Below, piece after piece: positions 4,466 to 5,023 of a stretch of 47,728 nucleotides of DNA (positions are counted from its first letter, which is position 1; each line of letters begins with the position of its first letter). Source of the DNA: Escherichia coli (lineage in GTDB: Bacteria > Pseudomonadota > Gammaproteobacteria > Enterobacterales > Enterobacteriaceae). The position numbers and the translations under genes were made by a program. Location of the stretch: assembly GCF_003334765.1 (NCBI RefSeq), contig NZ_QOWT01000031.1; one strand, 5' to 3'. The notes beneath the pieces are model-generated. The model made no database searches. It was given only the letters and a program-made list of their open reading frames with translations, and was not told the origin of the DNA.

Positions 4466-4492
4466 CAACAAAAAAGCGCCCTACAGGACGCT
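4466..4492 (-). terminator. Intrinsic terminator for the opposite-strand gene
   Basis: On the minus strand a 7-bp stem (one G-U) with 4-nt loop followed by U5, about 40 nt after the stop at 4532. Confidence 0.45.
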
Positions 4493-4531
4493 TAGCTCTT
4501 TAACAATCTGGATATCCACAACAGTAGCAAT

Positions 4532-5023
4532 CTACAGATTGCCGTTAAGTTTTCTGGACAACTCCTCAATGGATGGAGGCGATACGTAATCCGGATTTTT
4601 ATTCATCAGAAACTTATTTTCACAGTGGAGGCACCTGCTTTTATGAAAAAGCTCATCTTCGCTAACCGGGAATGGTTGAAGTATCGATACTATCTTTTGT
4701 CCAAAACATTTTGGGCAAAGATGCATGGTTATGCTGCCACCGTTCACGATTACCTCCTTCGAGTATACAAAAGTACCCGACTCAAGTTGGTTAAGGATAT
4801 AGCCTTCCGTCTGAGCCTCAAAGTTTTCGAATTCTGCAATTTTAGCTTTGAGAGAAGCATTTATTTCTTGATAAGAGCCCACCAGTTCAACGAGAGACAC
4901 GCATTCGCGCTGAATAGACGCAAGCTTTGAGTTCAGCTCACCAATAGCCGCATTTACTTCAGCTTGAGTTTTTGCCTCGTTCATTAGTTTTGCAATCTGG
5001 GCTGTTTCACGAATAGCCGTCAT
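4532..5023 (-). CDS. Coiled-coil protein with C-terminal Cys4 zinc-ribbon (CPKC...CLHC), unknown function; opposite-strand gene in the immunity region
   Basis: ORF-track entry begins at a TTG with an Arg-rich implausible N-terminus; first plausible ATG at 5023 (164 aa) or 4984 (151 aa); own terminator; no strong Shine-Dalgarno, so start uncertain. Confidence 0.5.
   Translation of the reverse strand: MTAIRETAQIAKLMNEAKTQAEVNAAIGELNSKLASIQRECVSLVELVGSYQEINASLKAKIAEFENFEAQTEGYILNQLESGTFVYSKEVIVNGGSITMHLCPKCFGQKIVSILQPFPVSEDELFHKSRCLHCENKFLMNKNPDYVSPPSIEELSRKLNGNL

What the first reader, a model, noticed from the sequence alone, without database searches (positions are those of the whole stretch)
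4466..5023. Opposite-strand gene between the prophage repressor and the early-left operon encodes a coiled-coil plus Cys4 zinc-ribbon protein
A roughly 150-164-aa protein is encoded antisense to the pL-like transcript, between the cI terminator/promoter and the yfdP-T cassette, with its own intrinsic terminator. In lambdoid phages this slot (rexAB in lambda, sieB in P22) typically carries superinfection-exclusion or abortive-infection genes expressed in the lysogen. The protein has a long heptad-like N-terminus and a CPKC-x24-CLHC zinc ribbon and matches no family I can name, so it is a candidate single-gene anti-phage or lysogeny-maintenance factor.
Basis: partly seen in the sequence, partly recalled or inferred. 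Interest (0 to 1): 0.75.

Follow-up and report, generated by a model that had tools for sequence, protein, structure and literature searches.

The report
Rip1-family anti-phage gene in prophage remnant

Summary
The gene is real. It lies on the minus strand at 4532-5047 and encodes 171 aa. The start is a conserved GTG at 5047, not the ATG at 5023. It has its own terminator (4474-4493). It sits between the cI terminator plus an operator-covered pL-like promoter and yfdP.

The product has two N-terminal helices (residues 2-79) and a beta-rich C-terminal domain with four invariant cysteines (CPKC-x24-CLHC). Pfam, PADLOC 2023 and NCBIfam give nothing.

It falls in phrog_1244 together with phage HK446 Rip1. 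HK446 Rip1 was solved by cryo-EM bound to the T6 small terminase (PDB 9oox, released February 2026):
- family profile against 9oox: E = 3.6e-27
- hhalign: probability 99.2%
- pairwise BLASTP: 27% identity, E = 4e-11

Relatives sit antisense inside lytic operons of lambda-like, P22-like and Mu-like phages.

Verdict: a divergent, untested member of a known defence family.

One side result is new. A roughly 105-nt leader upstream of the gene is better conserved than the coding sequence. In other prophages it precedes at least seven unrelated cargo genes in the same slot.

The parts
4532..5047 (-). Coding sequence of the Rip1-family protein: 171 aa, GTG start at 5047, TAG stop at 4534-4532.
   Evidence: ORF and sequence. 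RefSeq calls the same 516-nt CDS, WP_000559922.1. The N-terminus is conserved in the family. phrog_1244, E = 9e-60. Homology to PDB 9oox Rip1. dN/dS = 0.24.
4809..5044 (-). N-terminal helical region (residues 2-79: helices 2-24 and 28-79). The first ~25 residues are Ala/Ile/Leu-rich and amphipathic. No classical transmembrane segment is present.
   Evidence: AlphaFold2 model. Hydrophobic moment 0.41-0.44 for residues 5-24, maximum mean hydrophobicity 0.39; composition of the N-termini of 235 family members.
4622..4717 (-). Cys4 zinc-ribbon core (C111-P-K-C114 ... C139-L-H-C142) with the conserved S-I-L-Q-P motif after the first CxxC. It lies within the beta-rich C-terminal domain (residues 84-150).
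   Evidence: The four Cys are invariant in alignments A1 and A2. 225 of 235 full-length family members have CxxC-x(12-45)-CxxC. Strands in the model.
4466..4493 (-). Intrinsic terminator of the Rip1-like gene: 8-bp stem at 4493-4474, followed by TTTTTGTTGCT.
   Evidence: Terminator scan. The equivalent hairpin is present in the Citrobacter locus.
5048..5160 (-). Conserved non-coding leader directly upstream of the start codon. It has two CCCCAACAAC repeats and GGA motifs. It is shared with unrelated cargo genes in other prophages. Its function is unknown.
   Evidence: Alignment A3. Identity over 105 nt is 86-87% to Citrobacter and Salmonella and 68% to Edwardsiella. IMG/VR scan and cargo clustering. 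No significant RNA fold on either strand.
4357..4400 (+). pL-like early-left promoter (TTGACA-16-CATAAT, 4357-4384) overlapped by two operator-like repeats (4363-4380, 4383-4400). Its transcripts run antisense through the Rip1-like gene.
   Evidence: Promoter scan, 11 of 12 matches. Repeat family D1-D3 is shared with the cI/cro intergenic region at 3557-3625. The same promoter arrangement is present in Citrobacter.
3643..4348 (+). Prophage repressor (S24/LexA-type, ymfK-like, 3643-4317) and its terminator (4329-4348), convergent with the Rip1-like gene.
   Evidence: ORF list. RefSeq annotation as ymfK, LexA family protein. Terminator scan.
5159..5382 (+). Candidate STnc100/PasD-like prophage sRNA, divergent from the Rip1-like gene and ending in a hairpin plus U-run. 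It is a neighbour and is not shown to be part of the defence gene.
   Evidence: Rfam RF02076 over the full model length: 40.3 bits against a gathering score of 47, E = 1.2e-6. The STnc100/PasD relationship is described in preprint 10.64898/2026.05.13.724894.

Best explanation
The gene encodes a divergent member of the Rip1 ('ring interacting pore 1') family of prophage-borne anti-phage proteins.

Proposed mechanism, by homology with HK446 Rip1. The protein is made from the resident, here defective, prophage as a soluble protein with no transmembrane segment. When an unrelated phage infects and its small terminase assembles into a ring, the C-terminal zinc-ribbon/beta domain of Rip1 docks around that ring. 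The ring then templates a Rip1 oligomer: 12 Rip1 on an 11-subunit terminase in the reported structure. This brings the helical N-terminal parts together into a pore-like assembly that stops production of the invading phage.

The gene is placed antisense to the repressor-controlled pL-like promoter. It can therefore be expressed while cI keeps pL shut, and convergent transcription would oppose it once the prophage itself is induced.

Shown here: family membership, fold, conserved motifs, gene anatomy and recurrent antisense placement.

Inferred: expression in the lysogen, the small terminase as the trigger for this clade, pore formation, the outcome for the cell, and silencing by antisense transcription.
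For: Sequence:
- A profile of 23 family members, including the window protein, matches PDB 9oox Rip1 over its full length with E = 3.6e-27.
- The window protein alone gives E = 2.7e-7.
- BLASTP gives 27% identity over 148 aa, E = 4e-11.
- hhalign gives probability 99.2%, E = 6.6e-20.
- The window protein, HK446 Rip1, HK620 HkaP and JBD30 gp30 all fall in phrog_1244.

Structure:
- The AlphaFold2 model has mean pLDDT 89.7.
- The only significant Foldseek PDB hits are 9oox chains M and L (probability 1.00, E = 3e-7, TM-score 0.70 on the target).

Motifs:
- Four Cys are invariant, and Y83, G91, Y95 and I-L-Q are near-invariant, including in HK446 Rip1.

Function of the family:
- The 9oox title reads 'HK446 Rip1 in complex with the T6 small terminase'.
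- A conference report states that Rip1 is prophage-encoded, blocks incoming phage, and that 12 Rip1 cap an 11-subunit terminase, suggesting a pore-based defence (PMC12908700).
- Rip1 is listed among sensors of the small terminase (preprint 10.64898/2026.04.30.721860).

Context:
- HK446 Rip1 lies antisense in the pL operon just after N.
- HK620/HK630 hkaP lies antisense between N/hkaQ and cIII.
- The window and Citrobacter genes lie between cI/pL and the early-left genes.
- The Edwardsiella gene lies after N.
- The Salmonella gene lies after cro, in the pR operon.
[quoted passage not shown] That slot holds the unrelated defence protein Tab in JBD26.

Selection and physical properties:
- dN/dS is 0.24.
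- The N-terminus is amphipathic and has no transmembrane helix.
Against: - No experiment exists for this orthologue.
- It is only 24-28% identical to the characterised HK446 protein, so trigger specificity may differ.
- PADLOC-DB 2023 gives no hit. That database predates Rip1.
- No convincing sigma-70 promoter was found upstream on the minus strand, so expression in the lysogen is unproven.
- The primary Rip1 paper could not be found in the library. The mechanism rests on a PDB title, a conference summary and one citing sentence.
- 'Pore' is described there as suggested, not demonstrated.
Confidence: 0.75

Rival explanations
1. The protein has the Rip1 fold but a different trigger or effect. 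This clade may recognise another ring-shaped phage assembly, such as a portal or a different terminase type. Alternatively it may protect simply by sequestering the small terminase and blocking DNA packaging, without forming a membrane pore or killing the cell.
For: Identity to HK446 Rip1 is only 24-28%. The family is very large and diverse, with 3,624 clusters at 50% identity, as expected for sensors with diversified specificity. No transmembrane segment is present. The available sources describe the pore only as 'suggested'. In Casadabanviruses the same slot holds Tab, which acts by blocking assembly.
Against: The depositors named the molecule 'ring interacting pore'. The N-terminal amphipathic, Ala-rich helix is conserved across the family even though, in the solved complex, about 40 residues are not modelled (124-126 of 164 residues are modelled). 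That pattern would fit a mobile effector segment.
Confidence: 0.15
2. The gene is a prophage accessory gene ('moron') with a function other than defence. One possibility is a zinc-ribbon nucleic-acid-binding regulator that helps maintain lysogeny or modulates host physiology.
For: Zinc ribbons often bind nucleic acids. The gene lies next to the immunity region. The other cargo genes behind the same leader have no known function.
Against: Full-length homology and shared fold with a protein solved in complex with a phage small terminase. There is no DNA-binding domain hit in Pfam or NCBIfam. The gene occurs in phages with unrelated repressors and in Mu-like phages far from the immunity region.
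Confidence: 0.05
3. The gene is a decaying remnant with no current function. It sits in a prophage that has lost its replication, lysis and head genes.
For: The prophage in the window is a deletion remnant. Some relatives in IMG/VR are truncated or frameshifted (loci L025, L063).
Against: The ORF is full length and 99% identical to the copy in the complete phage genomes PhiR49_1 and PhiR29_1. Its start codon, ribosome-binding site, leader and terminator are intact. The family is under purifying selection.
Confidence: 0.04

Closest known systems
Rip1 (ring interacting pore 1) of Escherichia phage HK446 (gp37, AFH20665.1; PDB 9oox)
   Same: Same PHROG family (phrog_1244). Alignable over the full length. 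Same two-part architecture: N-terminal helices followed by a Cys4 zinc-ribbon/beta domain. Same fold. Same kind of genomic position, antisense to the pL transcript beside the immunity region.
   Different: Identity is only 24-28%. The HK446 gene lies downstream of N, whereas the window prophage has no N gene between pL and the Rip1-like gene. The window clade has a C-terminal tail (PDYVSPPSIEELSRKLNGNL) and a conserved upstream leader that the HK446, HK620 and JBD30 loci lack. Target phages are unknown.
HkaP of phages HK620, HK629 and HK630
   Same: Family member (phrog_1244, 28% identity). It is an antisense gene with its own terminator inside the pL operon, and was annotated years ago as a 'putative superinfection exclusion protein'.
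   Different: It sits between hkaQ/N and cIII in P22-like and lambda-like genomes. No experimental test was found. A biosensor study only used its flanks as neutral insertion sites.
Rip1 homologues of Pseudomonas Casadabanviruses (JBD30 gp30, DMS3, D3112 orf25, MP38 ORF25)
   Same: Family members: 29% identity to the window protein and 31-32% to HK446 Rip1. They are opposite-strand genes embedded in a lytic operon.
   Different: [quoted passage not shown]
Tab (tail assembly blocker, JBD26 gp31)
   Same: A prophage-expressed, opposite-strand, single-protein defence that acts late on a virion-assembly component. It occupies the very slot that Rip1 homologues occupy in sister phages.
   Different: It is an unrelated 83-aa protein (BLASTP E = 0.077). 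It targets the tape measure protein and comes with an anti-Tab gene. No counterpart of anti-Tab was identified here.
RexAB (lambda) and SieB (P22, lambda): classical immunity-region exclusion genes
   Same: Genes near the immunity region of lambdoid prophages, expressed in the lysogen, that abort or exclude superinfecting phages.
   Different: No sequence relationship was found: there are no Pfam hits to these families. RexAB and SieB are read in the same direction as cI/pL, whereas this gene is antisense. RexB and SieB are membrane proteins, and this protein has no transmembrane segment.

Membership tests
Rip1 (ring interacting pore 1; phrog_1244) | Significant full-length sequence similarity to the characterised HK446 Rip1 | tested here: met
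   Family profile against 9oox_L: E = 3.6e-27 over profile positions 4-151. phmmer: E = 2.7e-7. BLASTP: 27% identity over 148 aa, E = 4e-11. hhalign: probability 99.2%. Both proteins fall in phrog_1244.
Rip1 (ring interacting pore 1; phrog_1244) | Same fold as the solved Rip1 chain | tested here: met
Rip1 (ring interacting pore 1; phrog_1244) | Conserved Cys4 zinc ribbon and S-I-L-Q motif in the C-terminal domain; helical N-terminal half | tested here: met
   C111, C114, C139 and C142 are invariant, and I122-L123-Q124 are near-invariant, in alignments that include HK446 Rip1. 225 of 235 family members have the Cys pattern. Helices 2-79 in the model.
Rip1 (ring interacting pore 1; phrog_1244) | Prophage-encoded gene on the strand opposite to a lytic operon, with its own terminator | tested here: met
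   Window. HK446. HK620/HK630. Citrobacter, Edwardsiella and Salmonella. JBD30.
Rip1 (ring interacting pore 1; phrog_1244) | Binds the small-terminase ring of an infecting phage as a ring of about 12 subunits | not testable with these tools
   Known only for HK446 Rip1 with the T6 small terminase. No multimer prediction or binding assay is available here.
Rip1 (ring interacting pore 1; phrog_1244) | Protects the lysogen against superinfecting phage; pore or membrane effect | not testable with these tools
   This needs plaque assays and membrane-integrity assays. The sequence shows only an amphipathic N-terminus and no transmembrane segment.
SieB / RexAB immunity-region exclusion proteins | Sequence membership (Pfam families) and membrane-protein character | tested here: not met
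   No Pfam-A hit with E <= 0.001. No hydrophobic segment: maximum mean hydrophobicity is 0.39 over 18 residues.
Tab (JBD26 gp31) | Sequence similarity to the 83-aa Tab protein | tested here: not met
   BLASTP E = 0.077 over 23 residues. Only the genomic slot is shared, in sister phages.
Defence systems catalogued in PADLOC-DB 2.0 (2023) | Match to any defence-protein model | tested here: not met
   Best hit E = 0.063, to a coiled-coil stretch of a type I restriction enzyme. The database predates Rip1.
ECs_2282 family putative zinc-binding protein (NF047912) | Score above the curated cut-off of 37 bits | tested here: not met
   12.3 bits, E = 0.12, covering the CxxC region only.

The most novel reading that the evidence does not exclude
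The slot between cI/pL and the early-left genes of this prophage group may be a cargo-exchange hotspot served by one portable, strongly constrained leader of about 105 nt. The leader has two CCCCAACAAC C/A-rich repeats and ACAAGGAU/CUGGAU motifs.

It is placed in front of at least seven unrelated accessory genes: Rip1-like, the ECs1072 family, a proline-rich micro-peptide operon, a secreted protein, a multi-pass membrane protein and others.

If the leader is a common post-transcriptional or transcriptional control element (possibilities include Hfq with a small RNA, CsrA, or a non-canonical promoter), it would define a shared regulatory logic for lysogen-expressed defence genes. It would also serve as a sequence handle for finding new ones. 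The antisense position relative to pL would then act as the switch that turns them off during the prophage's own lytic growth.
Probability: 0.35. Interest if true: 0.6.

Novelty: new member of a known kind. Interest (0 to 1): 0.35.

Why it matters
This gives a function-level annotation to a gene labelled 'hypothetical' in hundreds of complete E. coli genomes and to phrog_1244, which PHROGs lists as 'unknown function'.

It extends the Rip1 family well beyond the characterised HK446 protein. New members include HK620 HkaP, the gene that replaces Tab in DMS3/JBD30-type Pseudomonas phages, and an Enterobacterales clade only about 27% identical to HK446 Rip1. The family has at least 3,600 clusters at 50% identity, which makes it a large pool of terminase-ring sensors with probably varied specificity.

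The gene is retained intact in a prophage remnant that has lost its own packaging genes. This fits domestication of the defence by the host.

The shared leader could be used to harvest further candidate defence genes from the same slot.

Tried and rejected
- **Domain libraries.** Pfam-A, PADLOC 2.0 and NCBIfam scans of the protein gave only coiled-coil noise.
- **Literature.** Searching 'HkaP' mostly returned unrelated acronyms; the one relevant paper used hkaP flanks as insertion sites. Repeated searches for the primary Rip1 paper found only a conference report and one citing preprint; one search failed for lack of capacity. Tsao et al. 2018 on Pseudomonas phage morons is not held in the library.
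- **Tab.** I considered that the protein might be Tab-like because its Pseudomonas relatives occupy the tab slot. I rejected this: Tab is an unrelated 83-aa protein.
- **Promoter.** I looked for a sigma-70 promoter for the gene in the window and in three related loci and found none convincing.
- **Leader as structured RNA.** z-scores on both strands are about 0 and RNAalifold gives -2.8 kcal/mol. A structured RNA is therefore rejected. One compensatory-looking change (CCAC..GTGG to CCGC..GCGG in Edwardsiella) is too little to build on.
- **Leader as RfaH ops-like site.** Only the Edwardsiella variant resembles one. I dropped this idea from reading the sequences in alignment A3, without a separate tool test.
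- **Long ORF forms.** The mechanical ORF (259 aa from TTG 5311) and the 243-aa call in the PhiR49_1 record are over-extensions through the leader.

Full report
**1. What is there**

The minus strand carries an ORF ending at TAG 4534-4532. The true start is most likely the GTG at 5047:
- The eight extra residues (MIAELTAA) are conserved in orthologues down to 45% identity.
- RefSeq annotates the 171-aa form.
- The E. coli, Salmonella and Citrobacter genes all begin with GTG.
- AAGAG lies 8 nt upstream.

An intrinsic terminator (stem 4493-4474 plus T-run) follows the stop codon.

On the plus strand, the S24/LexA-type repressor (3643-4317) ends in its own terminator (4329-4348). It is followed at once by a near-consensus promoter, TTGACA-16-CATAAT (4357-4384). 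Two copies of a TGTACC-N5-GGTACA-like repeat overlap this promoter. The same repeat occurs three times in the cI/cro intergenic region. This is therefore a repressor-controlled pL-like promoter, and its transcript reads antisense through the gene towards yfdP, yfdQ, yfdR, yfdT and int.

**2. The protein**

AlphaFold2 with a 23-sequence alignment gives a confident model (mean pLDDT 89.7). It has helices at 2-24 and 28-79, followed by a beta-rich domain at 84-150. That domain contains CPKC-x24-CLHC.

The four cysteines are invariant across the family. L66, Y83, G91, Y95 and the I-L-Q of an S-I-L-Q-P motif are invariant or nearly so. 225 of 235 full-length relatives have the Cys4 pattern.

There is no transmembrane segment. 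The first ~25 residues are Ala/Ile/Leu-rich and amphipathic.

dN/dS against the Salmonella orthologue is 0.24, so the ORF is a real gene under purifying selection.

**3. Identification**

Pfam, PADLOC 2.0 and NCBIfam give nothing. PHROGs places the protein in phrog_1244, 'unknown function', with E = 9e-60.

A profile of the family matches one solved structure over its full length. That structure is PDB 9oox, 'ring interacting pore 1 (Rip1)', with E = 3.6e-27. Other measures agree:

| Test | Result |
|---|---|
| Window protein alone (phmmer) | E = 2.7e-7 |
| BLASTP against HK446 Rip1 | 27% identity over 148 aa, E = 4e-11 |
| hhalign | probability 99.2% |
| Foldseek against the PDB | only 9oox chains significant; probability 1.00, target TM-score 0.70 |

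Foldseek gives the entry title as 'Cryo-EM structure of the Escherichia phage HK446 Rip1 in complex with the Enterobacteria phage T6 small terminase', released 2026-02-04. HK446 Rip1, HK620 HkaP, JBD30 gp30 and distant representatives all fall in phrog_1244.

**4. What is known about Rip1**

I could not find the primary paper in the library. Three sources were available:
- The PDB entry.
- A conference report. [quoted passage not shown] - A preprint that lists Rip1 among systems sensing the small terminase subunit (10.64898/2026.04.30.721860).

The mechanism I give for the window gene is transferred by homology from these sources.

**5. Genomic context across relatives**

The gene is always on the strand opposite to a lytic operon.

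| Host or phage | Position of the gene |
|---|---|
| HK446 | just after N in the pL operon |
| HK620, HK630 | hkaP, between hkaQ/N and cIII; annotated long ago as 'putative superinfection exclusion protein' |
| Citrobacter | between cI/pL and exc/int |
| Edwardsiella | after N |
| Salmonella (75%-identical orthologue) | after cro, in the pR operon |

The Casadabanvirus slot is the same one that holds the unrelated defence protein Tab in JBD26 and JBD24 (Patel et al. 2024, PMC10884400).

Recurrent antisense placement is the signature of a gene expressed from the prophage. It suggests, but does not prove, that lytic transcription silences the gene during the phage's own growth.

The family is large: 3,624 clusters at 50% identity with E <= 0.001, and 2,156 with E <= 1e-10. 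In E. coli, 383 of 5,426 complete genomes carry at least 80% of the queried 1.2-kb stretch containing the gene, and it is always labelled hypothetical.

**6. State of the prophage**

The window holds only one end of a prophage integrated at tRNA-Arg(tct). The integrase gene lies at 8319-9482 and the tRNA at 9498-9574. Host genes follow: the next gene is annotated fimZ in a genome that carries the same insertion site.

Downstream of the cII-like ymfL gene there is a 446-aa ORF (1414-2754). It joins about 19 ymfM-like residues to the C-terminal half of a tail protein. No complete E. coli genome matches window 1-5100 contiguously. The replication, lysis and head genes have therefore been deleted.

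The nearly identical gene (99.4%) sits in the complete lambda-like phage genomes PhiR49_1 and PhiR29_1, which have a Nu1-type small terminase.

**7. The conserved leader (side result)**

The ~105 nt upstream of the start codon (5048-5160, minus strand) are 86-87% identical to the Citrobacter and Salmonella loci and 68% identical to the Edwardsiella locus. The coding sequences are saturated at synonymous sites over the same comparisons. The leader is absent from the HK446, HK620, HK630 and JBD30 loci.

Elsewhere it is one of the following:
- a 144-aa ECs1072-family protein (36 loci);
- a 25-37-aa proline-rich peptide followed by a second ORF (about 17 loci);
- a 78-aa protein;
- a 170-aa secreted protein;
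- a 167-aa protein;
- a multi-pass membrane protein.

Most of these units are convergent with an S24 repressor gene within 1.6 kb. They therefore occupy the same slot.

The leader has no significant RNA structure on either strand and no clear sigma-70 promoter. It contains two CCCCAACAAC repeats and GGA motifs. Its function is unexplained.

Immediately beyond it, on the plus strand (5159-5382), lies a full-length but sub-threshold match to the prophage sRNA family STnc100. The match ends in a terminator. A recent preprint relates STnc100 to the PasD sRNAs.

**8. Verdict**

The gene is a divergent, untested member of a family whose founding member has now been solved. It is therefore a new member of a known kind and not a new kind of system.

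Still open:
- which phages this clade senses;
- whether a pore really forms;
- where the gene's promoter is;
- what the shared leader does.

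Noticed in passing
window 5048-5160 (-); also loci L009-L015 and about 120 IMG/VR loci (L016 onward): A leader of about 105 nt upstream of the Rip1-like start codon is better conserved than the coding sequence. In other prophages it precedes at least seven unrelated cargo genes in the same slot, convergent with an S24 repressor. It contains two CCCCAACAAC repeats and GGA motifs. It shows no significant RNA fold and no clear promoter.
   Followed up: partly
window 5159-5382 (+): A full-length but sub-threshold match to the prophage sRNA family STnc100 (RF02076): 40.3 bits against a gathering score of 47, E = 1.2e-6. 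It ends in a hairpin plus U-run and is divergent from the Rip1-like gene. RefSeq instead annotates a 'frameshifted hypothetical protein' here. A 2026 preprint relates STnc100 to the PasD sRNAs.
   Followed up: partly
window 1414-3320 (-): The prophage is a deletion remnant. Directly after the cII-like ymfL gene, a 446-aa ORF fuses about 19 ymfM-like residues to the C-terminal half (positions 367-793) of a tail protein (phrog_1419). Replication, lysis and head genes are missing. No complete E. coli genome matches window 1-5100 contiguously.
   Followed up: partly
window 3557-3625 and 4362-4400: Five copies of an operator-like repeat (TGTACC-N5-GGTACA type). Three lie between cI and cro. Two overlap the pL-like promoter TTGACA-16-CATAAT (4357-4384).
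   Followed up: partly
IMG/VR loci L026, L038, L042, L043, L048, L057, L068, L073, L080, L084, L087, L094, L103, L121: Behind the same leader, one cargo class is a two-gene unit. It consists of a conserved 25-37-aa proline-rich peptide (motif YEERHMPPFKRPEPPPKP), followed within about 10 nt by an ORF beginning MTRDD.IFD.NYS. The peptide is conserved at the protein level while its DNA varies.
   Followed up: no
L004 (JBD30) 3001-3495; DMS3, D3112 and MP38 equivalents: [quoted passage not shown] JBD26 and JBD24 carry Tab plus anti-Tab in the same slot instead.
   Followed up: partly
L012/L013 (Edwardsiella) 4962-6279: Two further same-strand genes (228 and 175 aa, no Pfam hits) follow the Rip1-like gene inside the pL operon, downstream of N. 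L013 also has a GmrSD_N-domain gene nearby. This may be a small island of accessory or defence genes.
   Followed up: no
window 9498-9574 (-) and 8319-9482 (+): The prophage is integrated next to tRNA-Arg(tct), with an integrase gene annotated intD in a matching genome. This is the argU site used by DLP12 in E. coli K-12 (the K-12 comparison is from general knowledge).
   Followed up: no
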